This document shows, piece by piece, positions 7,841 to 63,700 of a DNA stretch of 64,000 nt; positions within the stretch are counted from its first letter, which is position 1, and every line of letters begins with the position of its first letter. The DNA is from the human T2T-CHM13v2.0 reference genome, Homo sapiens. The DNA lies in the NCBI RefSeq assembly GCF_009914755.1, contig NC_060933.1, one strand, 5' to 3'. The notes beneath the pieces were generated by a model. The model did no database searches. It was not told the origin of the DNA and worked only from the letters and a program-made list of their open reading frames with translations. A program made the position numbers and the translations under genes.

Positions 7841-8312
<472 letters not shown>

Positions 8313-8541
8313 TGATTGTATTAAGCCACTGAGATTTAAGGGTTTATTGTTTATAACAGCTAGTATTGTCAAACTATGTAAGTATTTAGAACATGGTAAG
8401 GAATCAATAAATGCTAGTAATCACCATGATGATGATATGATGATGATCATGATGACAATACCCCTGGACAAAGGGTCCACAAGGGTAGGAGGTAGGAGGG
8501 CTGGTCAAGTTTGACTGAGTGGCTGGGCCAGGGGAGCTCAC

Positions 8542-8807
8542 CTCCTTTGTGCCATTGTCTTGGATGAGGGTATAAAGTGGCACCACACGGTTGATTTCCA
8601 GCAGCACTGGTGTGGGGCTCAGCTGCTCCTTGCCTGGCCGGCGGCAAAGGTGACAGGTAGATGGACAGCGCCCCTTCTCCTCACAGCGAATCTCCACACC
8701 TGAAATGAGCTGGTCATCTGACAGCATCTGGGCTGTCAGCAAACCTGAGAGGTAGGTGATGAAGGGCATGGACTTGAGCTCCTTCTTGCTGCCCAGCTCT
8801 GTGGTCT
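8542..8807 (-). CDS. ASTN2: Astrotactin-2 internal coding exon (266 nt, phase 1 in, phase 0 out), C-terminal part of the MACPF region
   Basis: Polypyrimidine tract + CAG acceptor (8808-8810) and GTGAG donor (8541-8537). Encodes (E)TTELGSKKELKSMPFITYLSGLLTAQMLSDDQLISGVEIRCEEKGRCPSTCHLCRRPGKEQLSPTPVLLEINRVVPLYTLIQDNGTKE, recognised as ASTN2. Confidence 0.95.
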
Positions 8808-9068
8808 CTGGAGAGGCACAAGACAGGAAGAGCGAAAGGTAAACTCAGGATTATTCAAAAGGCCAGACTCTTGAATTCACAAAATACAGATGCTAAGAAG
8901 CTGGTATCCATTGAGGAAGTAAAAAGATGATAGAGTGATTTATTCATGATGCCTTGGAAAGACTGCCAGACTGAGGGTTCAAAGGCCAGAATGGTGTATT
9001 GTCCTACCACTTACATTAAATATCCACTTGCTTTGTCTGGCCCTCATTTTTCCCGTATGTAAAGTTGG

Positions 9069-23903: not shown

Positions 23904-24272
<369 letters not shown>

Positions 24273-26394: not shown

Positions 26395-26829
26395 AAAAAA
26401 CAAACAAACAAACAAACAAAACAGTACATTTAGGTTTGTAAGAAACTGCCAAACCACCTTCCAAAGTGGCTGCGCATTTTGCATTCCTACCAGCAATGAA
26501 CAAGAATTCCTGTGGCTCTGAATCATTGTCAGCACTTGATTTGCAGCATCTTTTCATATGCTTATTTGCCATATGTCTATCTTCCTTGGTGACATGTATA
26601 TTAAAGTCTTCAGCCCATTTTTTTATTTGGGCTATTTTCTTATTGTTGAGTTTTAAGAGCTCTTTATATATTTTGGATAACAGTCCTTTATTGGATGTGT
26701 CTTTTGCAAATACTTTCTCCCAGTCTTTGGCTTGTATTCTCATTATCTTGACATTGTCTTTCATAGAGCAGAAGTTTTTCATTTTAATGAAATCCAGCTT
26801 ATCAATGATTCCTTATGTATTGTATTTTT

Positions 26830-27469
26830 TTTTTTTTGAGACAGAGTCTTGCTCTGTCACCCAGTCTGGAATGCAGTGGTGTGATCTTGGCTCACTGCAA
26901 CCTCAACCTCTTGGGTTCAAGCAATTCTCTGCCTCAGCCTCCCACGTAGCTGGGATTACAGGCACGTGCCACCACGCCCAGCTAATTTTTGTATTTTTAG
27001 TAGAAATGGGGTTTCACCATGTTGGCCAGGCTGCTCTCAAACTCCTGACCTCAGGTGATCCACCCGCCTTGGCCTCCCAAAGTGTTGGGATTACAGGCAT
27101 GAGCCACCATGCCCAGCCTGCACTACTTCTCATAAAGCCACCCATCAATCAAAAACATCTATTTGGGATGCTGAACAAATAAACAAAAAAACCTTGATTG
27201 TATTAAGCCACTGAGATTTAAGGGTTTATTGTTTATAACAGCTAGTATTGTCAAACTATGTAAGTACTTAGAACATGGTAAGGAATCAATAAACGCTAGT
27301 AATCACCATGATGATGATATGATGATGATCATGATGACAATCCCCCCGGACAAAGTGTCCACAAGGGCAGGAGGTAGAAGGGCTGGTCAAGTATGACTGA
27401 GTGGCTGGGCCAGGGGATCACAGCCTCCCCAAGTGCTGGGATTACAGGCATAAGCCACCGCACCTGGCC
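26830..27469 (-). mobile_element. AluS containing a templated insertion
   Basis: 17-bp TSD TTATGTATTGTATTTTT (26813-26829, 27470-27486) brackets Alu + 300 bp non-Alu + a second Alu 5' end. Confidence 0.9.
27005..27421 (+). repeat. Direct copy of ~8115-8541 (about 95-96% identity by manual alignment)
   Basis: 27119-27417 aligns to 8231-8535 with ~12 substitutions plus a (CAAA)n length change; the adjacent Alu arm shares private variants (CTGCTCTCAAAC, AGTGTTG). Confidence 0.95.
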
Positions 27470-28539
27470 TTATGTATTGTATTTTTAAAAAGCAATAACA
27501 TTTTCCTATTCTTCAAAATAAAACAGAAGAATAGATAAGCAGTGACATGAAAATAATATGTTGGGTAGAGGTGAGGGGTTGGGTAAAGGAGACTGTCTCT
27601 TTGTCTGTGGCCAGGCAGTCTTACAGATGTCAGTTGATGGAGTGGTTAATGGCAGCCACCATAAAGAGGAAAGCTGGCTGAAATACTGGAGCAAAGAGGA
27701 GCAGGAGATCTGGGACTGGGGCTGAGATGCAGGGCTTGGCAGAAATTAGGCCTATGAGAAATTTTCCCAGCAGCCTTCATTTAGCATTAAGTTGAGCTGA
27801 GGTTGTTAGCACTGCATAGGGAATCTTCTCTTGGCAATAACATTATTATTATTATTTCTGACCTTTGACTATCCATACTAGTTCAAACCATTACAAATTG
27901 GATCTGGTCAATGAACATAAATGTATATGATATTAAAATAAAGCTTCAAAATTCTGAACCAGTTGTTTCCATATCAACTCAAGGAAATAAACTAGAAAGG
28001 AAAAAAAATGTATCTGCACAAGGACATTTTTGCAATCTTATTTGAGCTAGTTCAATGTTCAAAGTTGGGTCTGTCAACTCTTAGGTAGGCAGTTTGACAA
28101 TTATAAAGGCCAGTAAAAAATTATTTCAAACATTTTTCATATTAAGTAAATAAAATCCCAAAATTTATATTAGAAAAGAAAGTTTTTGAATACCTAGAAT
28201 TATTATAGATACGTATTAACAGAGTAAGAGGAACTTAGTAAATGTTTACAATTAGATAAATATAACCATCATAATGATTATATTAAGGTGGTTGATAAAA
28301 CTGACTCTTTTAAAATGCTCTTTTATAATTTAAATTTAAATTGAATTCAAACATCTATTGAGCACTTACCAAGTATCAGGTATAGGCTAGACTGAAAAAT
28401 TTGGGGGCTGGGTACATCATATGGAGATTAGAGTCAGAATTTCAGCAAAAAGTAGAACTAAGTAGGCCAACAGATAATAAGAAAAGGAGGGAGGAAAGAA
28501 AAAGGGATGAAGAGAGAGCAAGTTGGGGTGGGGGGAACA

Positions 28540-30879: not shown

Positions 30880-31260
30880 TGAAGCCACCTTTGCAAAACT
30901 ATGACTGAGATAGTGAAAGAGATCTAACTTAACTGACTCCATCTTGCTTCTAACCTCCATGCTGTCCTTGTTCATTCCTGGGCATAGGCTGAACTAACTT
31001 TGGGAGAAACTTAGTTTGTAGTTTATAGTTTAAAGAAAAATGGTAACAGCTCTTTCCAAAGCAGACCTCCTTCTTGCCTGGGGACTAGATTGCCTTTGTA
31101 GGACTAACATTAGCCACAGATTAGAAATTATGGTTTAGGAGTCATGCAGCTGGAGGTTACAAGATGCTGACCCTCCCTAAACTGCTCCTGAGATCAGTGC
31201 TTGAGATATTTTGCAGACCCTGCACTTGATGGATCAGCTGGCACTACCCAAATCAATACT

Positions 31261-31743
31261 TGCCAGGTTCTGACCCACAGACCCCAGCTGCATGACAGAT
31301 GAATAACGTACTCAGACACTGATATTCAGTGAAAGAGAGGCTACAGGGCCAGGCCACACACAGAGTTGTGGCAATCACACACTTTGATTAGCTGGCCCTG
31401 CCGGCATTTATTCAGCACAGATTTAATGACAAAGGCTTTGAGTCAACACACCTGTGGGCAATTAATCTGGTCGCCCTCCCCCGGAGAGAGCCATCCTGCC
31501 CACAAATGATCAAAGGTTGGTTTTAGGACAATGGGAGTAAACAAGCTATTTAGATAAACTTCCCCACATTCCCTTGTTATTTGCTTTTTTGCTATCAACT
31601 AAAGGTAAAGAGGACTAGGCTGCCTTCAGCCAAATCTTTTACTGAAGCTATGCAACCCCCCTGGCCTTCCAAGAAGGTTTGTGTCTATCTCCTATAACTA
31701 TATCTTTATAATTTTCTCCAACCACCCTGACCAATCCCCTACA
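31261..31743 (-). mobile_element. LTR22 (HERV-K HML-5) solo LTR inserted in the 5' LTR8
   Basis: 483 bp absent from the 3' LTR; minus strand reads TGTAGGGGATTGGTCAGGGTGG...CCTGGCA; TAAACT target site (left copy eroded). Confidence 0.75.
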
Positions 31744-34700
31744 TAAACTGGCTCATCTGATCTTGTGGCCCTGGACTCAGGAACTGACTCAGTGCAAGGA
31801 GACAGCTTCAACTCCCTATGATTTCATCCCTGACCAATCAGCACTCCTGGCTCACTGGCTTCCCCCAGCCACCAAGTTATCCTTAAAAACTCTGCTCCCC
31901 AAATGCTCAGGGAGACTGATTTGAGTAATAATAAAACTCCAGTCTTCCACACAGCGAGCTCTGCTTGAATTACTCTTTCTCCATTGCAATTCCCGTCTTG
32001 ATGAATTGGCTCTGTCTACGCAGTGGGCAAGGTGAACCCCCTGGGCAGTTACAAATTCAGGGGCTTGTCCAGGATTGCCCTTGTGGCTACCTGCTCATGG
32101 TTCAGTGCCCCCCCACGCTCCAGCAATGGATCCAGAGGCCAGCCCAAGTGGCTGCTTAGTTCTTTTGGACTGGGGCTGACTCTGGTACTCTATTGGTGGG
32201 GTACTGCTGATCCAATGTGCAAGGATTTAATTGCAATGGAGAAATAATCCTGGGGAGATATCCCTTAACTGTAGCCCTATCACAGGGTGTCAGTCTGTAG
32301 CTCCATTGTAGGGTGTTTGGATTGGTGACTATCCTAGGTGCTTCCAATGCCTCCTTCCTTCTCCCAGCTGGTCTGTAGCCCTATGGTGGGGTGTCTGTAG
32401 CCCCAATGCAGGGAGTCTGTTTATAGCTCCACCATGGTGTGTCTGCATCTGTAGCCCCATTGCGGGGTGTCTGTTTGGCTCCTTCCAGGGGTTCTTGGTT
32501 AGCTCTTTCCAACTAGTAGGAAGAGTCTTGGTTTGGGAGACTTCTCATTCAGGAGGATTTCGAGGAGGATTCTCAGATGGAGAATAGGAGGATAGTTTGG
32601 AAGGGATACTCTTGGAGTTCTTGATCAGGGATCTGATTTGGAAGGCCTTCTGTCTGTCATGTCTTTCTGTGTGTTTGTATATGTGAAGGGGATCTCAGAA
32701 GGAATTGCTGCTGGAAGTCCAGCAGGCTTAACTCAGAGAACCCTCCTTATTTGTCTAGTTACATTTGGTGAGCCCTAAAGAAAGCTCAACAGGCCTGTCT
32801 CAGGGTGACCATCTGCTCTTGGCCTTGCCCAGAGACCCCATTGTGAATTGCCATTTAGAGGTCATGCCTTCCCACCTGGAGTGGATCAAAGACAACAGGG
32901 ACCAACAGGGAAAAAGTTTGAGCTTTGCCAGGTTGACATTGCGTGCTGAACAAGGTGACTAATGTCTGTTTTGTTATGTGTATTTTGCTGGGATGAAAAA
33001 TTTTAATTCAGTTCCCTAAGCAGCATATTGGGCAGCATTTGCAAATTAAGAATCTTGTCTATGGTTCCATAAAACAGTAAAGGGTGATTTTCTCTTGTAA
33101 AGTGGCTTGACCCCCACAGCTATAGCACAAGAGAACAGGGTCACGAGAAGCCGCTCCGTTCTTCTGGAAGCTGCAGAGAAAAGGAAACTGGAAATCTGAT
33201 ATGCCAGCAAAAAGGGTAAGAAATTCTTACCAGCCAAATTTCTCTCTCTCTCTTTCTCTGTCTGGGTAAACAGTAAACTATTTGTCTCCCCTGCAAGGGT
33301 TTGATTAATAGCAAAAAGGATTTGCGAGACTAGTCTTAGGCCATAGCAAATCTGGTGTACTTTGTGCTAAGAATTTGTCTTTCTGTGTTCTGTAATGGAG
33401 AGAGGGGTATCACAGGATAGAATGTGGATTTAGGATCCCTACAAGCCTGCTTTTCAAGGCAGTTTGGCAGGCTGGTCAGTTACAAACTTTGCTACAGGTC
33501 CCTGAAACCAATACAGTACAAAATTCCTCTGTCTTGTTTTGTGTCCTTAAGAGCTCAACCTTGTGACCATATGGGGATACTTTCTTTTGGTTTGCACTAT
33601 CCAGAAGACAGACATTTGTGGGCTCATGTCATAGTTAGCCATAACAATTTTTTTTGAGCAGTTAAAAGCCTTGCAAGCTTGAAATTGGCTTCTCTAGGCT
33701 CCTTCTAGGAAAAGCAATAGAAACTGCTCAATGCTGTACAGCTCAGTAGCCAAGGCTTTATCTTTTGAAAGTGGTGGCCTGGGTTCAATTGTTGGCTTCT
33801 GGAATGATTCCTTTCTGGTTTGTTATTAGTGTAGCATTGCCATTTACTGAGGTTTTTCCCCCCATGGTAGTTTCTGATTTCCTCTCTTGAATTTTCCTTT
33901 TTCTGAACTACCTTGTGGAAATTCTAAATCTTGTAAAAAAGAAACTACTTACCATGTCTTTGAAGCACCTAGGAAGTTACCTTTGGTAAAGTTTAGAAGC
34001 TACAAATATTGGCCGCTTGGCATGGCTAAAGCCAGGTAATAAGAGATTTGAAATGATTTTTTTTAAAGAGCACTATGGTTAAAAGTCAGCTTAATTAAAA
34101 GTGGATAAACAAACTATAGATATATTTTAAAAGCCTTTATGTTTTTCTCTTCTTGGAACTTGTTTTTCTGGAAAAAGGTTTTTTTCCCTTCTCAGTCTAC
34201 TGAATTATTTTTCTCCATTTTTTTGTCTTGCCACTCTTAATGCATACATGAGAGGCACTAAGATAACTTCTCATAGCTTGGGACTCCTTGGGAAAGACAG
34301 AGGAGGCACCATAGACCCTGTTTTGGAAAAAAAAACCTCTGTTTTCTTCATTAAAATCTAGTAATTAAAAGTGGATGGATCCCTCTCAAAATCAAACACT
34401 CTGTTCTGTTTTGCATTGTGTTATCTGACAGTTTTGAGTTTGGGGGTATCAGAAATTACTTGGCATTATGAGAGAGCTTTGGTTTGTAATAACTAGGTAG
34501 GAAATATACTTTAAGGAATGGCTAATAGCACTTATGGAGGGATACTTGACTTTTTGCACACTTGGATCAGAGAAGCATGCTATTGGCCACCTGGAAGATA
34601 AGGAAACATCCCCACCCCCCACTGGAAGATGAGACTCCCAAGAGAGATGGGCTGATTACAAAATGGGCTGATTGGCTTTGGGTTGCCTTGCAATGAAATA

Positions 34701-36597
34701 CAGGGTAGAAGCACTGCACTGTCTTCTCCCATAGTATTTCCCTCCTTTTGGGGACCCAGGATCCAGTATAAAATGGGACCCTTAATTTTGGGTATCTGTC
34801 TTTGCGTTCAGCTGCTTATTTGCTGCTTATTTGGCCCTAGAAAGGCATGCTTTCCTGGCCCTCTTCCTCCAAGGGCTTCACCCTGAAGCCAGTAATCCAA
34901 TTAAGAAACTGGGAAATGAAAAATATTACAAGTGCTGAAGCATCTGTCCATCTGCTGTCTATTTATATGTGTTGTATGTTTATATCTAAAAGAGCTCTGA
35001 TTAATTGGCTTAGAAAAATAAGCATTTAAATCAAATATTTCATCAGAAAAATAGAAACTTTAATGCCTTTTTGTTCATATGACTTCAGTAATCTTTTGGA
35101 AATAAAGACAGTTTTAAAGATTATTGGTAAAATGTCTTAAAAATATAGACACTTGTTCTAAATTAAGGTCAGATATCAGATTTGTTAAATGCTTAAGGTC
35201 CAACTGTTTCCTTGACTTTTGAAAATTGTTCAACTTACCTACTTTGGGGCATTAGATTATAGATAAGGCCTGGGGACAAATGGAGAGCCATGACCAACAT
35301 CTACAATAAAAAGAGTCAGACCTTATCGTCACTTCTGTCTGATGTCCTAGGCTCCACCCCTAGTACATAATTAAAATCACTTACTTATCAGGTTTTTCAC
35401 TAAAAATAAAAGTTGCTAAGAGTTAACATTGTAACATGTTATTGAGACCACTGGAGAAACAGTTTTACATATAAGGTGTGTAGGGAATGTGTTTTTGGTA
35501 AAAGATTATAAGAAGGCATGGAGATACGGCTTTTGTTAAAAGGAATGTAATTTTGTCTAGTTCAGAGGGTTTTAAAGATTGTCTTAACCTACAAGTGTAA
35601 TGGAACAAAACTAAAGGTTAAGCAAAGTGAAAAGGGCTTATAAAGGGTTGATCTTGTAAAAAACATTCTGTAGGTATAAACAAGATGGCTAAGATTTGAT
35701 TGAAATTATTTAGCTTTTTTTCCATAGATTAAAACATTAAAATCATACTCATGTGGGGCCAGAATCTGGGACCATGTGTCTGAATAACCAGGTTTTCTTA
35801 GAAAATTGATCTGTTTGATAGAAAATTGTAAAGAGTTCTAAACAGTTTATGAAAATCTTACCTTATGACCAAACTAATTAAAAACGGATATAAAATTTTA
35901 TTTTAAAAAGTAGTTTTAACATTAAAGATGCACTAATGCAAACATGAAATTTGGTTTTCTCTTTTGAAGATGATTTTCATGTAATGTTAAAAGATAATGA
36001 AAGGGTTTCGTTTTTCCCTCTGGGTAAATGGCAGGCAAGACAGAAAAGAGACAAATTCAGTTAGCCTCATGCTATCTTTATTGGGTCTTATTTGGAAAGC
36101 TAAGTCTCCTCTATCAGAGTAAAGGTTTTTCTTTTTAAAAATTTTTGAAGTTATCATTTTGGCCAAATGAATTAGTTATGGTTATCATTTTAGCCAAATT
36201 GATGACTTATGGTAACCTGGGATTCTATTTTATAATATCCAGTGTTTTAAACCTTTGTTATTTGACAAACTTTCCAAAATCAAATTATAAATTATGTCTC
36301 TTTCTAGCCTAATCTTTTAGATATTAAATCCTGTAAAGTCCAAAAATGACATTTGGCTTATTTCATATGAAACTCATACAAGAAGCACTGTCAAATAGGA
36401 AATGATGTTTGGCTTTCTTTGGAACATTTGTGTAAATGTGTTACTGGCGTATGTTCCGAAATTATGTAAAACTCCTATAATTCTAATATGACTTAGTATA
36501 TGTTATCAGTAATAATTATAATTATTATGTTAAATGACTGTGTGCCACAGAGGTAACAAATTCCCTTGTCAATTGTGTCTTCAAGTGTGGCTGCCCT

Positions 36598-40087
<3,490 letters not shown>

Positions 40088-43000
40088 AAGTGTGGCTGCC
40101 CTAAAATGTTTTTGTCATCCATATACAATTGTTGTCTCGCTTTGGTCCTCTTTAACGGATGGTTTTATAATCAGCTATAAAATTTAACAGGCCCTCTTAA
40201 ATGCAGGTTTCTGATTAAAAACTCTGGAGACTGTGATATTAGAATCGAGGAAAAACTTTCAAATTGAAGAGTGAATAGTGTTTGGTTTTCTTTGGACTAT
40301 ATTTGTATAAATATGTTATTAGTATGTGTTCCAGAAATTATGGGAAACTTCTATAATTCTGATATGATTTAGAGTACATTATTAATAATTATAATTGTTA
40401 TATAAAAGTGTTGTATGCCACAGAAGTAACCAAGATTCCTAGTCAATTGTAGCTTTAATAGTAGCTATAGACTTTTGTCATCCATAGACATTTTGTCTTG
40501 CTTTTGTCCTTTTCAAAAGGCAGTTTATAATCAGATATCACACTCTGAGTGCAGGTCTCAGATAACTTTAAAAATTGTTTTATTGGAATAGAGGAAAAAA
40601 TGAAACTTCTAGGCTTCTCACAGATAGCTGATGTGTTAAGCATTGCTAATCCTCTCATTTTCAGAGTCAAGATAGCATATTTCTTTAGAGTTATTTGCAA
40701 CTTTTAACAAATGAGTAAAAAATACTTCCATGAAAAAAATTTAGAGCATATTTGTTTCTCTCTACCTGATTTCTCCTGAATATGGAAACTATTTGTAAGT
40801 ATTCTCAATTTATGCCAGTATACTTAATTGCATAAGTGCAGTAAGAATCTGTTTTGTCTTGTAACAGGACACAACTGGAGAAATTGATTATTTTACCAAG
40901 GCTTTTACTGGAATGGCATGCTTCCTTCAAAGAATCAAAATTAATGTATAGAGCCAATTAAAGCCCCCTGGGGAATCTAACCTCAGACCTTGTCTATAGT
41001 CCCTGTACAAGGTTCTGTCATACAGTCCCTGTACAAGGTTCCTGACCTGTGGTAAGTAAAGAATGTCACTTTCTAACAGGCCCAGGAACCCCAAGTTATT
41101 TTGGGACCTTGAGAAGAGAGGAATTTACCCAACTCATAGGTATTTGAGGATACAAACCCATGGCTGAGCTTGGCTTTTAAAAACTCTTATCTGAGATTCC
41201 TCATGGAACAGAGTTCCATCAAAGCTAATTTAAACAAAAAAGACCCTAAGTGAAAAATAATTATTCTTGCTGCACTTTATGCAAATAATCAGGCCAAGTA
41301 TAGTAAGACTAAAGTACATTTCTGTAAACAAATCAGTTCTATCATGATTTGTTTTTAATAAAAATGGGGTCTGGAGAGAGAGAAATTATGCTTCAAGAGG
41401 AAACCTATTGTTAGCTGTTGTTAGCTGTCCTTGAGTTTTTTCTACAATTTTGACTAAATCCTAAATTATTTGTGGGTTGGAAGTCGCCAGACTAATGCTT
41501 TCAAATCTTTGCTTTTAAAATTGAGTATTGTACTCCTCATCCTAGGACTCATTATTTACCTTATAGTAGGCTGTTCACCTAAATACTGTACTAAAACTAT
41601 AGATGAGAGTACTAATGTTTTTGCCATGCAAGCCTTAGAAGCCCAGCCAGACCTGCATGAGTCGCTCAGACACTTGAAAGTGGTCCCACTCTTCTCACCT
41701 TGGGGTTGACTCCCATTCCCACTACGTCCCCTGTCAGCAAGAAGAACCCAGAGCAATCGACAGCCTTTTCCCATCTTCATACCCTACACTTTAAGATTAA
41801 GGTGTTACAAAACCCAAAGTGATGGACTGAAACTGCCTTTGCAAAATTATGATTGAGACAGTAAAAGAGATCTAACTTAACTGACTCCATCTTGCTTCTA
41901 ACTTCCAAGCTGTCCTTGTTCATTCCTGGGCATAGGCTGAACTAACTTTGGGAGAAATTTAGTCTGTAGTTCATAGTTTAAACAAAGACAGTAACAACCC
42001 TATCCCAAAGCAGACCTCCTTGCCTGGGTACTAGATTGCCTTTGTAGGACTAACATTAGCCACAAGATTAGAAATTGCGGTTTAGGAGTCATGCAGTTGG
42101 AGGTTACAAGATGCTGAGCCTCCCTAAAATGCTTCTGAGATCAGTGCTTGAGATATTTTGCAGACCCTGCACTTGATGGATCAGCTGGCACCACCCAGAT
42201 CAATAAACTCACTCATCTGATCTTGTGGCCCCCCCACTCAGGAACTGACTCACTGCAAGGAGACAGCTTCGACTCCCTATGATTTCATCCCTGACCAACA
42301 GCGCTCCTGGCTCACTGGCTTCCCCCAACCCACCAAGTTATCCTTAAAATCTCTGTTCCCCAAATGCTCAGGGAGATGACTTGAGTAATCATAAAACTCC
42401 AGTCTCCCGCACAGCTGACTCTGCGTGAATTACTCTTTAACTATTGCAATTCCCCTGTCTTGATGAATCAGCTCTGTCTAGGCAGTGAGCAAGGTAAACT
42501 CCTCAGGTGGTTCCACTGATATAGGTGATTTAAGTGTTAAATAAAAATCTGTTACATTAAAATGCTGAATAAAGAGTGTTTAAAGCACTCCACAAAGATT
42601 ATTTTTTAAATGCCTCTGTGTAAGAGGAATTCTAATATTGTGCCAGGATATGTCAAGCTATAAGATAAAAATTGAGTGCATTTCCTAGAATGCTTATTCT
42701 ACTCTAAGATTTTGTGAGAGGTATAATAATTCATTTAACTGGTAATAAACATTAAAGAAGAGTCAAACACTGATTTTTGTTTTAAGGGAGAAGAGAGATT
42801 TTTTTTTTTCAAGACACTTGCTTGAGCTAGATCCCCAGGAGTATTTTTAACACTCCTCTGTAATTAGGGAAACATCAGTATGTCTGTATTGATACATATA
42901 CACACATATATAATATGTATATATGTAAGACTATGAACAGTCCTAAATTTATACTTTGGGCTGATAACTGTGGTTTTCAGGAAAAAAAAAAATTTAAAAC

Positions 43001-60016: not shown

Positions 60017-60760
<744 letters not shown>

Positions 60761-63700
60761 AAAAGTGCAGTGTTACTCTACTCTGTAGGAGGGAAGTGGA
60801 AGGGAGAACCTAGTATGAGACTCAGGTCTCCACCCTGCACTTGACTAGGATGCTGATTTGCACTCAGGACATGCAGCCCTTCAAGGCATCTCAAATTACA
60901 GACATGAAACAACAGATGCCTGGATGAATTTTACAAGCAGGGCAACAGTGAGGAAGAAGGCTGTGTAGCAAAATATACACTTAGACTCCAGACCTATGGC
61001 TTTATCTTGTCAATATCATTAATATTCACGGGACCCAAGCTAAGGCTGAAGTTAGTGAGCCAGCTCTGGGTCTGGCAATGTACTCTAGTGAGAAGATCAC
61101 CGGCCTTGAAGTCAGGCTTGTGTCTGAATCACAGCTCTGCATTTTAACTAGCTGTGTGACCTCAGGTGATCACCATACTTCTGAGCCTCAATTTCCCTAT
61201 CTGTTAATTTAAATAAGGGTGTTGGTATGTCACCAAAATCCCTTCTAGCTCTAAGATTTTAATTAATTTGTTAACCAATGGAATTGTTGAGTTCCCCCCA
61301 ATGTTTTTGCATAATCTTTGTTATAACTGTGTTTTGTTTACATTAGAATAGTAGAACAACAACATCAACAAAAAACCCAAATCATCCCCAACTTGATATA
61401 ATTGCTTCTCTACCCCAGCTGTTGTGACTTTGTGTCACTTAGCTGTTGTCACCCTGCTGAGCTAGAGTTTTCCTTGGTAAAAGAAAATGAATGACAGTTT
61501 ATGTTTTAAAGGGCTGTTGTGAGAATTAAAATATATAAATGGGATAGTATATGTAAAAGTACCTAATTCAGAAAATGTGTGACTTCCATTATAGGGGGCA
61601 AAAGCATCCTTCCCTTCATGGTGAGTTGTTGATACACATTCAAGTGAAAGCCAGTGGAGATTTTCAGACCTGTATTGGTGATGCAATAGCATGTTCAGCA
61701 CTTCTTGGCCTCTTAATTGAAAAGCCTATTGGAGGAAGAGTGGGATTGCTGGAGGGGCAGAAGCAATACTCATTCACAGCAATGTATCCCATTAGGAAAG
61801 CTGTAAATAAATCCTAAAGTCTAATCATTTGATTAAAGTAATTAAGATGGCATCTTGACTCTTTTGAGGGGTAAATAGAGCCAAGATTTTTTTAAAGATT
61901 TTATATATATATGCACTAATATGTAGTACATACATCTAAGTATATACACACACGCACAGGTAGAGATGAAATTTTTTTTAAAACCTTAGAAACATGCATG
62001 TTTAGCTATTTCTTTAGATGGCTAGCTTCAAAGAATTTTTTCTCTAGGTCAAAATTTATTAACTCAAATAATTATAAAAATAAAAGTAAGCCACAAATAT
62101 CCCTGTTAAGTGGTTAAAGCTTGAGCTTTGTAAGCAGGGAGTCCTGAGTTTAGTCCTGTTTCCCTCAATTATTAGCTCTATGACCATTAAGTCACTTAAC
62201 CTCTCAGTCTGTTTTCTCACTAGTAATGACTGTTTCACATTTTATTGCAGTATTGTGAAGAGATGATGGATACATAAATGCCATTTAGCAGAATAAAAAG
62301 CATTTTTGAAATTACAGTAAACCAAATATATCTGAAATTACCTCATTTTTGTGATATAAAGATGATATGAAACTGGTAAGGGAAAGTCTAACCCCTGCAA
62401 CCACAAAGGAAAATTATTTACTAACTCACTGAAATCTTGATTGAAACCATGAAGAGTTTGTGTGAATGTATATAAGTCAAATGCATGTTTTCCCTATACA
62501 GATAAAACCAGGATTTTCTTGTGGTGATTTACCCAGTTTACCTGGTTATAACTATAATGGCATTGCATATTGTGAAAGAATATCAAAACCTGAGATTCCA
62601 TTTATTCACTCACTTATTAAACATATATAAGACATCTACCCTTTATTATTATTAGCAATACTTAATATGAGTAATGAATGCAAAGAAAATCAGTCATGAA
62701 TTTTGTAGTCAAGTAGCTTGTGGTCTGGCTGCAGAGATGATAAGGTATGTAAACAAATAATAAAAAATACAAGAGAGTAAGATAAATGGTAACAGGATAG
62801 AAATGGAGTGCCAAGTGTTTGAGTAAAGACTGCTGAGAAGATCTGGTTGCTGAAGGGCCTTAAAAGTAAAGGGAATATCGTGAACAAAGGTACAAGATTA
62901 GGATGAAGAGTGAGAAGTTGGTGCCAGAAGTTAAAACCACCCCAGAATGAGGGGACATTAAAGAAATTCAAAGGTCTAAAGTGGTTAAGTAATAATTCAA
63001 ATGGTTCTTTTTTTTTCTGCCCTAGTTTATATGACTTACTGCCAACAGTACCCATGGCTCAGTGAGGCTTCATACTTATAGAGGTGGTAGGGTATGAATC
63101 AGAATCTCCTTAGAGTCCTGAGGGTGGAGGGCAAAGGCATAGTTTGAAAATGCATACCCTCTTCGGTATTCTAATATCTCTCCTGATGGGGAATCACTGA
63201 TTGACATTGTCTCAGAAATACATTTTCTGTCCTTTAAAAATTCTGAAATAATATCAAATTTTTCTCCCCTCAGAAGCCTACGCCAAATAAGTGCTGTAAT
63301 CTTAGTACAACTTTGTAGTACAGTCAGACTCATTTGTTGATGTCTGACTGGCTGAGTTTTTAAAACCTATTATTCCCCCTTCCGCCCCATATCTGGACAT
63401 GCCAGTAAGAAAGCTCAAATGCTTCCACCTTTGTGCCTGGTGGAAGTTCAAACCACCTAAGAATCCTCACTGCAGCCCTACCTCCAAGCCACTAGGAAAA
63501 GCCAGGCTCCTCTACTTTCCCTGCTCAAGCCATTTCTGGACCTGCTTGAGAACTCGCTGCTCTCTGTAAAAGCCTCGTGTGAGTGATAAACCTTTTCATA
63601 TCTATTTGGTCCTAATGTAACATCAGTCCTAACACCTAAACCAAGTTTTGGGTAAGGGGTTCAACCTCTCCTCTGTGGGATGACTAAACACTTTATGCAA

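What the first reader, a model, noticed from the sequence alone, without database searches (positions are those of the whole stretch)
27005..27421. Templated insertion inside an Alu that ends at the ASTN2 5' splice site: candidate fossil of intron-RNA-templated repair
Seen: one pair of 17-bp TSDs encloses an Alu, ~300 bp of non-Alu sequence, and a second copy of the Alu's first ~48 nt. The insert is a direct copy of ~8115-8541, 18.9 kb away. It enters through Alu-Alu homology (the switch lies at ~27000-27033, judged by shared private variants). It stops at CCAGGGGA-TCAC, versus source CCAGGGGAGCTCAC|exon, so it ends 0-6 nt from the first base (GT) of the ASTN2 intron and contains no exon sequence. 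Inference: a plus-strand 3' end in the broken Alu annealed to the Alu in minus-strand intron RNA, was extended until it ran off the 5' end of the excised intron or lariat, and was then end-joined. The polarity fits. Copy/source divergence (~4-5%) and shared CpG-decay variants suggest the event post-dates both Alu insertions. Caveat: GATC/CAGCC also resembles Alu sequence, so DNA-templated one-sided invasion with a microhomology exit remains possible.
Basis: partly seen in the sequence, partly recalled or inferred. Interest (0 to 1): 0.82.

Follow-up and report, generated by a model that had tools for sequence, protein, structure and literature searches.

The report
Copied intron patch inside an Alu
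An old Alu repeat in an ASTN2 intron was broken and mended with a roughly 400-base copy of a neighbouring ASTN2 intron that stops at that intron's first bases; this may be a rare scar of repair copied from spliced-out RNA, but the sequence cannot separate that from ordinary DNA-copying repair.

Summary
One 17-19 bp target-site duplication (26811-26829 / 27468-27486) encloses three parts. They are a poly-T plus AluS body, 303 bp of non-Alu sequence (27119-27421), and a second 47-48 nt Alu head (27422-27469).

From a switch at 26994-27033 to 27421 the sequence copies 8106/8145-8541. There are 15 mismatches in 424 aligned positions, against 30 in 163 to the left (Fisher p = 8e-9). The copy carries the source Alu's own flanking duplication. 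T2T-CHM13 holds only these two copies.

The copy ends 0-2 nt from the first base of the ASTN2 intron (6 nt on the least favourable reading) and contains no exon. The host Alu is probably older than the patch.

So a break in a resident Alu was repaired by homology-primed copying and then end-joined. The sequence does not say whether the template was duplex DNA or intron RNA. A random stop this close to the splice site has a chance of about 0.1-0.9%. But unspliced pre-mRNA should far outnumber lariats, and Alu-primed DNA template switching is well documented.

My odds: DNA template about 0.5, intron-RNA repair about 0.27, L1 template jumping during Alu insertion about 0.1. Primate orthologues and a genome-wide endpoint test would decide; neither could be run here.

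The parts
26811..26829 (+). Left target-site duplication of the host Alu (17-19 bp)
   Evidence: Exact 19-bp match to 27468-27486.
26830..26993 (-). Poly-T tail and right arm of the host AluS (Alu sense is on the minus strand, the ASTN2 strand). This is original host sequence.
   Evidence: 30/163 mismatches to the source Alu. Against a 43-Alu consensus: 5/132 non-CpG changes and 11/12 CpG sites decayed.
26994..27033 (.). Interval holding the entry switch from host Alu to source Alu
   Evidence: Bounded by the source-private base at 26993 and the shared private variant at 27034. 1/40 mismatches.
27034..27118 (-). Alu left arm and head copied from the source Alu (8146-8230)
   Evidence: 3/85 mismatches. 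It shares 10 departures from the window consensus with the source, one of them seen in 0 of 11 other Alus.
27119..27421 (-). Copy of ASTN2 intron bases 8231-8541. It includes the right flanking duplication of the source Alu and ends at the intron's first bases.
   Evidence: 11/299 mismatches and 2 gaps up to 27417. Exit motif. Only two copies in the genome.
27422..27469 (-). Retained head (first 47-48 nt) of the host Alu
   Evidence: 8/47 mismatches to the source-derived head at 27072-27118. Abuts the right target-site duplication.
27468..27486 (+). Right target-site duplication of the host Alu
   Evidence: Followed by AAAAAGC.
7935..8230 (-). Source Alu, flanked by its own 12-bp duplication (7923-7934 / 8229-8240)
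8231..8541 (-). Source: the first 311 nt of the ASTN2 intron downstream of exon 8542-8807, read on the gene strand from 8541 downward
   Evidence: Hub annotation. GT read at 8541-8540 on the minus strand.

Best explanation
A double-strand break, or a collapsed replication fork, inside an already resident AluS was repaired by a templated patch copied from DNA.

1. The + strand 3' end on the left of the break paired with the diverged but similar Alu 18.9 kb away in the same gene, in the same orientation.
2. It was extended by a DNA polymerase on the minus strand of that locus. Synthesis ran through the rest of the source Alu and 303-311 nt of flanking intron.
3. The new strand then came off and was joined to what remained of the host Alu head, with 0-3 nt of microhomology.

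This is one-ended homologous invasion, or a microhomology-mediated template switch, followed by end-joining. On this reading the stop at the exon boundary is a coincidence. Selection may have helped, by removing copies that carried a usable piece of the exon plus its donor site into the upstream intron.

Shown: the anatomy, the direction of copying, the two junctions, and the relative ages. Inferred: the break, the enzymes, and that the template was DNA.
For: - Entry lies in 40 nt of Alu-Alu identity. There is an abrupt change from 18.4% to 2.5-3.7% divergence (Fisher p 8e-9).
- The source Alu's flanking duplication is carried along.
- The exit has at most 1-3 nt of microhomology and a 2-bp gap, or 2 mismatches, next to the junction. 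This looks like end-joining.
- The host Alu is probably older than the patch. It has 11/12 CpG sites decayed, against 4/8 lineage-sites since the event (P = 0.06), 1/4 in the copy lineage (P = 0.03), and 6/24 in the two youngest Alus of the region (P = 2e-4). It has 5 non-CpG changes where 2.0 are expected (P = 0.05).
- Every step has precedent. D-loop synthesis of several hundred nucleotides followed by dissociation is described in PMC7407515 (passages). Alu-Alu gene conversion among neighbours is described in PMC8230782 (passages). Chimeric Alus from Alu/Alu-mediated template switching appear in PMC6071635 (search listing only). Coupled homologous and non-homologous repair is recalled from Richardson and Jasin 2000, not read here.
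- For a long intron, unspliced nascent RNA with the exon still attached should far outnumber lariats (established knowledge). An RNA template would therefore usually not end at the splice site either.
Against: - The end falls 0-2 nt from the intron's first base. For exponential tracts with a mean of 300-1000 nt, the chance of stopping in the last 1, 3 or 7 nt before the boundary is 0.07-0.12%, 0.22-0.36% and 0.5-0.9%.
- The polarity is the only one an RNA template allows, which is a 1-in-2 coincidence for DNA.
- The source Alu is neither the nearest nor the most similar same-orientation Alu. Those at 23977 and 25214 are 1.3-2.6 kb away and 85-86% identical, against about 82% for the host/source left parts.
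- PMC8230782 (passages) puts Alu gene conversion mostly within about 10 kb and at 89-100% identity.
Confidence: 0.5

Rival explanations
1. Intron-RNA-templated break repair. After a break in the resident Alu, the + strand 3' end annealed to the sense Alu in excised ASTN2 intron RNA, either a lariat or a freshly debranched intron. A reverse-transcribing polymerase extended it until it ran off the RNA's 5' end at the first intron base. The end was then joined to the remaining Alu head.
For: - The copy ends 0-2 nt from intron base 1 and holds no exon base. Under random stopping this has a chance of 0.1-0.9%.
- The polarity is the required one (hub annotation for the gene strand).
- Target and source lie in the same transcription unit.
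- RNA-derived patches at breaks are reported in human cells and as germline polymorphisms, some from intronic sequence (PMC5110952, parts 1-2 of 4 read). RNA-templated break repair in human cells is reported in PMC12065846 (abstract and outline only).
- 5 of 11 substitutions in the non-Alu part are source T to copy C on the + strand, the direction of A-to-I editing, against 1 the other way.
Against: - It rests on a single case and on position alone.
- Two of the five T-to-C differences are ordinary CpG decay in the source. None of the 3 differences in the Alu part, where editing would be expected, has that direction.
- Intron bases 5-6 are missing from the copy.
- About 390-430 nt is long for the cellular polymerases reported to copy RNA (recalled).
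- Lariats of long introns are short-lived compared with unspliced nascent RNA (established knowledge).
- ASTN2 is mainly a neural gene, and germline expression was not checked (recalled).
- No published report of splice-donor-terminated patches was found. PMC13174262 holds 0 occurrences of 'lariat'.
Confidence: 0.27
2. Template jumping by L1 reverse transcriptase during the Alu insertion itself. The + strand is the first cDNA strand of this Alu: it was primed at TTTTT/AAAAA and the poly-T comes first. The enzyme copied the Alu RNA tail and right arm, then switched within Alu homology onto ASTN2 intron RNA. It ran to that RNA's 5' end, then jumped back to the remaining 47-48 nt head of the Alu RNA and finished. 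One insertion event, one pair of duplications.
For: - The whole composite sits in one perfect 17-19 bp duplication at a canonical L1 endonuclease site.
- The direction of cDNA synthesis equals the direction of the copy.
- No separate break or unusual polymerase is needed.
- ORF2p template switching to other RNAs is an accepted route to chimeric insertions (PMC13174262, passages). Double jumps are reported for a fungal LINE (PMC2104539, search listing only).
- The duplications show 0 mismatches in 19 bp. This fits a young insertion slightly better than an old one.
- From recall only: the retained head is about the size of the SRP9/14-bound 5' domain of Alu RNA.
Against: - The host Alu parts look older than the patch. 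They have 11/12 CpG sites decayed and 5/132 non-CpG changes. The copy and source differ by 3.0% pairwise at non-CpG sites, which is 1.5% per lineage and predicts 2.0 changes (P = 0.05). CpG tests give P = 0.03-0.06.
- The host Alu lacks the features of the two young Alus of the region.
- Known jumps go to the 3' end of an acceptor RNA, not to an internal homologous site (recalled).
- This model also needs an RNA whose 5' end is the intron start.
Confidence: 0.1
3. Two DNA steps. Unequal Alu-Alu recombination duplicated the 18.9-kb interval and created the hybrid Alu. A later deletion of about 18.6 kb then removed everything from the exon boundary to position 47-48 of the downstream Alu. Because the exon is 266 nt long, a duplicated copy would shift the reading frame, so alleles that lost it would be favoured.
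For: - The hybrid Alu followed by source flank is exactly the junction that unequal recombination would make.
- The exon is 266 nt, not a multiple of three (hub annotation).
Against: - It needs two rare events and leaves the precise boundary unexplained.
- No remnant of a larger duplication exists in the window or in 200 kb beside it.
- The two Alus are about 18% diverged.
Confidence: 0.05

Closest known systems
Class 2 templated sequence insertions / insertion polymorphisms (Onozawa and Aplan; PMC5110952, parts 1-2 read)
   Same: A patch copied from elsewhere with the donor left intact. It has no poly(A) or duplication of its own. The exit junction shows end-joining features. Intronic donors are reported and an RNA origin has been argued.
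   Different: Here one junction is homology-mediated, through tens of bases of Alu. The donor lies 18.9 kb away in the same gene rather than at a distant locus. One end coincides with an intron's first base. That paper, as far as I read it, does not describe a splice-site end.
Non-allelic Alu-Alu gene conversion (PMC8230782, passages)
   Same: Part of one Alu is replaced one-way by the sequence of a nearby Alu in the same orientation, and the donor is unchanged.
   Different: The tract does not end in homology. It runs 303 bp beyond the Alu into unique DNA and is closed by end-joining. The distance (18.9 kb) and identity (about 82%) lie outside the ranges quoted there (about 10 kb; 89-100%).
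Alu/Alu-mediated rearrangement by replicative template switching (PMC6071635, listing only) and coupled homologous/non-homologous break repair (Richardson and Jasin 2000, recalled)
   Same: A chimeric Alu forms between diverged Alus. Synthesis runs past the homology and is closed without homology.
   Different: Those events are usually seen as deletions or duplications of the whole interval. Here the only net change is a patch of about 400 bp plus the loss of about 85-125 nt of Alu.
Chimeric retrocopies made by L1 ORF2p template switching (PMC13174262, passages)
   Same: Several RNA-derived segments in one orientation sit within one duplication at an endonuclease site. That paper treats junctions at exact splice sites as marks of an RNA stage.
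   Different: Known chimeras join a small RNA or spliced exons to an L1 or Alu 3' part. None described there carries the start of an intron or an internal homology-driven switch. The host Alu here also looks older than the patch.

Membership tests
Templated sequence insertion, class 2 (break repair patch) | The inserted sequence is a copy of another genomic locus, which stays intact | tested here: met
   Source 8106/8145-8541 is intact, with its exon and both Alu flanking duplications. There are two copies in the genome.
Templated sequence insertion, class 2 (break repair patch) | No target-site duplication, poly(A) or poly(A) signal belonging to the insert itself | tested here: met
   The only duplication and poly-T belong to the host Alu. 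The insert's two ends lie inside the Alu.
Templated sequence insertion, class 2 (break repair patch) | End-joining features at both junctions | tested here: not met
   The exit has them: 0-3 nt of microhomology and a 2-bp gap. The entry lies in at least 40 nt of Alu homology.
Templated sequence insertion, class 2 (break repair patch) | Derived from reverse-transcribed RNA | not testable with these tools
   This needs primate orthologues or a genome-wide endpoint test. The endpoint at the intron start is the only indication.
L1-mediated retrocopy (class 1 insertion) | Insert ends in poly(A) and is flanked by its own duplication at TT/AAAA | tested here: not met
   The intron-derived segment has no poly(A). 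The duplication encloses the host Alu. This remains compatible with a chimeric single-event insertion (rival 2).
Non-allelic Alu gene conversion | Converted tract begins and ends within the homologous repeat | tested here: not met
   The tract leaves the Alu at 27118 and continues for 303 bp.
Alu/Alu-mediated rearrangement | Chimeric Alu at the junction | tested here: met
   Host-type left part and source-type right part, with the switch at 26994-27033.
Alu/Alu-mediated rearrangement | Deletion or duplication of the whole interval between the two Alus | tested here: not met
   No second copy of the interval exists in the window or in the 200 kb beside it.
Lariat read-through product | Sequence next to the intron start comes from upstream of a branch point of the same intron | tested here: not met
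   Within 200 kb downstream plus the window, no Alu head matches 27422-27469 better than 3-5 mismatches in 47-49 nt. The fragment ends exactly at the host duplication.

The most novel reading that the evidence does not exclude
The patch was reverse-transcribed from excised ASTN2 intron RNA, and its end marks the 5' end of a lariat or a freshly debranched intron. It would then be a natural, germline-fixed scar of RNA-templated break repair primed through an Alu. If so, 'templated copy that ends at a splice donor in the right polarity' becomes a searchable genome-wide signature of this pathway.
Probability: 0.3. Interest if true: 0.8.

Novelty: new variant of a known kind. Interest (0 to 1): 0.5.

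Why it matters
RNA-templated repair of chromosome breaks has been shown with reporters in yeast and human cells. Natural, inherited scars that can be told apart from DNA-templated repair are scarce. The accepted scar so far is loss of whole introns (PMC12065846, abstract).

A patch that starts in a repeat and stops at the first base of an intron would be the complementary scar, left by the excised intron rather than the spliced message. One case proves nothing. It does define a sharp test with built-in controls that uses only public data. The test asks whether the ends of short intragenic templated copies pile up at 5' splice sites in the polarity an RNA template demands, compared with the opposite polarity and with 3' splice sites.

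If they do not, this locus is an ordinary example of Alu-primed DNA repair. It also serves as a reminder that Alu age estimates can be distorted by later patches.

Tried and rejected
1. Alu-derived end. I tested whether the last four bases of the insert come from the host Alu rather than the source, with exit by annealing at the similar motif in the Alu (8 of 10 bases alike, by eye). This needs two separate deletions, of 1 and 7 nt. The source-derived reading needs one 2-bp gap. Matches of that quality are expected by chance among the possible position pairs. Kept only as a minor possibility.

2. Ungapped reading. The source is copied to 8539 and joined through a 3-nt overlap, with 2 mismatches in 4 nt. 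This is possible but less parsimonious. It moves the end by only 2 nt.

3. Lariat read-through into a second Alu, which would have made both junctions homologous. Rejected: there is no matching Alu head in 264 kb.

4. The non-Alu segment as a dispersed repeat. Rejected: two full copies only. A stretch of 46-65 bp does match nine other loci at 79-89% and is probably a fragment of an ancient repeat.

5. Reverse direction of copying (27 kb as source). Rejected by the two sets of flanking duplications.

6. Baseline frequency of such local duplicates from 264 kb. Besides the finding, one search returned three pairs that are repeats or probable repeats and one 143-bp pair that was not followed up. 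This is too little to set a prior.

8. Literature. Searches found no report of templated insertions ending at splice donors. Subscription-only papers and supplements were not searched.

9. No primate genomes, repeat-family library or human gene annotation beyond the hub table were available. Cross-species dating and the genome-wide test could therefore not be attempted.

Full report
**What is there**

The region was read on the + strand and aligned to its proposed source.

- An exact 19-bp repeat, CCTTATGTATTGTATTTTT, lies at 26811-26829 and 27468-27486. The first two bases may belong to the Alu end, so the target-site duplication is 17-19 bp.
- The reconstructed empty site reads TTTTT/AAAAA. 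This is the usual L1 endonuclease site (motif recalled).
- Between the two copies lie three parts. They are a poly-T tail and Alu body (26830-27118), 303 bp of non-Alu sequence (27119-27421), and a second Alu head of 47-48 nt (27422-27469) that abuts the right duplication.
- The Alu is in sense orientation on the minus strand, which is the ASTN2 strand according to the hub's annotation.

**The insert copies a segment 18.9 kb away**

Against 7941-8541 the divergence changes abruptly:

| Copy interval | Mismatches | Gaps |
|---|---|---|
| 26831-26993 | 30/163 (18.4%) | 2 |
| 26994-27033 | 1/40 | 0 |
| 27034-27118 | 3/85 | 0 |
| 27119-27417 | 11/299 | 2 |

- Fisher's test of left against right gives p = 7.6e-9. 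It was entered with the earlier count of 31/163.
- The switch interval is bounded on the left by a base private to the source (26993). It is bounded on the right by a variant at 27034 that copy and source share and 0 of 11 other window Alus carry.
- The source Alu has its own 12-bp flanking duplication (7923-7934 / 8229-8240). Only the right copy travelled with the insert. So the 8-kb locus is the source and the 27-kb locus is the copy.
- The second Alu head differs from the source-derived head at 8 of 47 positions. This is as diverged as the left part, so it is the original head of the host Alu.
- A search of the whole 3.1-Gb assembly found only these two full copies of the non-Alu part. Nine other matches of 46-65 bp at 79-89% point to a fragment of an old dispersed repeat inside it.
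- Within 264 kb of this gene, the finding is the only clear non-repeat local duplicate.

**The exit**

- The copy reads CCAGGGGATCAC and then AGCC, which is the Alu head. The source reads CCAGGGGAGCTCAC and then the exon, starting at 8542.
- Bases 8540-8541 are AC, which is GT on the gene strand. Bases 8808-8809 are CT, which is AG. The annotated exon boundaries are therefore real splice sites.
- With one 2-bp gap, the copy matches the source up to the last intron base. The final C could equally be the first base of the Alu part.
- Without a gap, the copy matches up to 8539 with 2 mismatches in 4 nt and a 3-nt overlap with the Alu.
- If the last four bases are not source-derived at all, the copy ends 6 nt short.
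- Deriving those four bases from the host Alu needs two separate deletions, so I rank it lowest.
- In every reading, no exon base is present and the end lies 0-6 nt, most likely 0-2 nt, from the intron's first base.

**Relative ages**

A consensus was built from 43 full-length Alus in the window and in 200 kb beside it.

- The host Alu's left part shows 5/132 non-CpG changes and 11/12 CpG sites decayed.
- The two youngest Alus of the region show 4/12 and 2/12 CpG sites decayed.
- Copy and source differ at 11 non-CpG positions in about 366. That is 3.0% pairwise, or 1.5% per lineage. It predicts 2.0 changes in the host's left part if host Alu and patch were the same age. Five are seen (P = 0.05).
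- CpG sites that were still intact when the copy was made have decayed in 4 of 8 lineage-sites, and in 1 of 4 in the copy lineage. This count is my own reading. Against 11/12, these give P = 0.06 and 0.03.
- Most CpG decays and several private variants in the copied Alu part are shared by copy and source. The source Alu was therefore already old when it was copied.
- The patch clearly post-dates the source Alu and probably post-dates the host Alu. The second inference is suggestive, not firm.

**What happened**

The anatomy fits a templated patch.

1. The host Alu was broken somewhere between its head and about position 27033.
2. The + strand 3' end on the left paired with the source Alu sequence.
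3. It was extended rightwards for about 390-430 nt.
4. The new end was joined, essentially without homology, to the remaining 47-48 nt of the Alu head.

About 85-125 nt of the original Alu was lost. This much follows from the sequence. What cannot be read from it is whether the template was the DNA duplex at 8 kb or RNA transcribed from it.

**For an RNA template**

- The copy stops where an excised intron begins. For exponential synthesis tracts with means of 300-1000 nt, the chance of stopping in the last 1, 3 or 7 nt before the boundary is 0.07-0.12%, 0.22-0.36% and 0.5-0.9%.
- The polarity is the only one RNA allows. Source and target lie in one transcription unit.
- RNA-derived patches at breaks, some from intronic sequence, are described in cultured cells and as inherited polymorphisms (PMC5110952, parts 1-2 of 4 read).
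- RNA-templated break repair in human cells has recent experimental support (PMC12065846, abstract and outline only).
- The source Alu is neither the nearest nor the most similar Alu available to a DNA homology search. Distance and identity lie outside the ranges quoted for Alu gene conversion (PMC8230782, passages).

**Against an RNA template**

- It is one case, judged by position alone.
- For a long intron, the 5' part exists mainly as nascent RNA with the exon still attached, and lariats are brief (established knowledge). An RNA template would therefore usually not end at the splice site.
- The tract is long for the cellular polymerases known to copy RNA (recalled).
- There is no editing signature in the Alu part. 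The T-to-C excess in the non-Alu part (5 against 1; two of the five are CpG decay in the source) cannot be polarised without an outgroup.
- Every step of the DNA route is well documented. D-loop synthesis of hundreds of bases followed by dissociation is in PMC7407515 (passages). Chimeric Alus from template switching are in PMC6071635 (listing only). Coupled homologous and end-joining repair is recalled.
- Selection would also have removed copies that carried part of the exon with its donor site into the upstream intron. This narrows the range of endpoints that could survive.

The + strand is also the first cDNA strand of this Alu's own insertion. L1 reverse transcriptase could have switched from Alu RNA to intron RNA within Alu homology, run to the intron RNA's 5' end, and jumped back to the Alu head. 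That would give the same structure, polarity and end in a single event. The perfect duplications fit this slightly better. The age comparison argues against it, and an intact host Alu in any primate would refute it. Template switching by this enzyme is accepted for other chimeras (PMC13174262, passages).

**Also tested and rejected**

I tested whether the second Alu head came from read-through of a lariat branch into another Alu of the intron. No Alu head in 264 kb matches it better than 3-5 mismatches in 47-49 nt.

**Verdict**

The RNA-template claim is neither supported nor excluded. My odds are:

| Reading | Odds |
|---|---|
| DNA-templated one-ended repair | about 0.5 |
| Intron-RNA-templated repair | about 0.27 |
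| L1 template jumping at insertion | about 0.1 |
| Duplication followed by deletion | about 0.05 |
| Unassigned | remainder |

- These odds rest largely on priors that I could not measure.
- No report of templated insertions ending at splice donors was found in ten full-text searches. Subscription journals and supplements were not covered.
- The event is a new variant of known templated-insertion and Alu-mediated repair.
- Its value is that it defines a cheap and decisive genome-wide test.

Noticed in passing
window 30880-31258 and 31743-32040 versus 41828-42502: Two copies of a dispersed repeat family at 88-92% identity. The genome search gave 3278 first-look candidates, and 40 of 40 scored were 90-93% identical. 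The first copy is split by about 480 bp of other sequence. This is an ordinary repeat, not a local duplication.
   Followed up: partly
window 39103-39522 versus 60029-60448 (inverted, 96.7%) and 39734-40059 versus 60442-60764 (93.6%): Two pieces of the long masked repeat at 36596-40098 recur in the masked stretch 60024-60773, one of them inverted. These are probably parts of one repeat family. The family was not identified.
   Followed up: no
window 27119-27421, about 27181-27249: A 46-65 bp piece of the copied intron segment matches nine other loci on other chromosomes at 79-89%. The source intron therefore contains a fragment of an ancient dispersed repeat. From recall it resembles a MIR element.
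   Followed up: no
window 27171, 27267, 27294, 27347, 27368 versus 27180: Five of the 11 substitutions between the copy and the source non-Alu segment are source T / copy C on the + strand, against one the other way. Two of the five are CpG sites kept in the copy. An outgroup is needed to tell source decay from changes made at copying.
   Followed up: partly
window 27416-27421, minus strand: The insert places a copy of the ASTN2 splice-donor intron side (the first four intron bases, then a 2-bp gap) in sense orientation in the upstream intron, with no exon in front of it. No sign of use is known from the hub's annotation.
   Followed up: no
200 kb left of the window: window coordinates -133983..-128151 versus -111618..-105788; also -176316..-176177 versus -173808..-173667: A 5.9-kb pair at 93.8% identity, probably two copies of a long interspersed repeat. 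Also a 143-bp pair at 87% that is low-copy within the 264 kb examined. Neither was checked against the genome.
   Followed up: no
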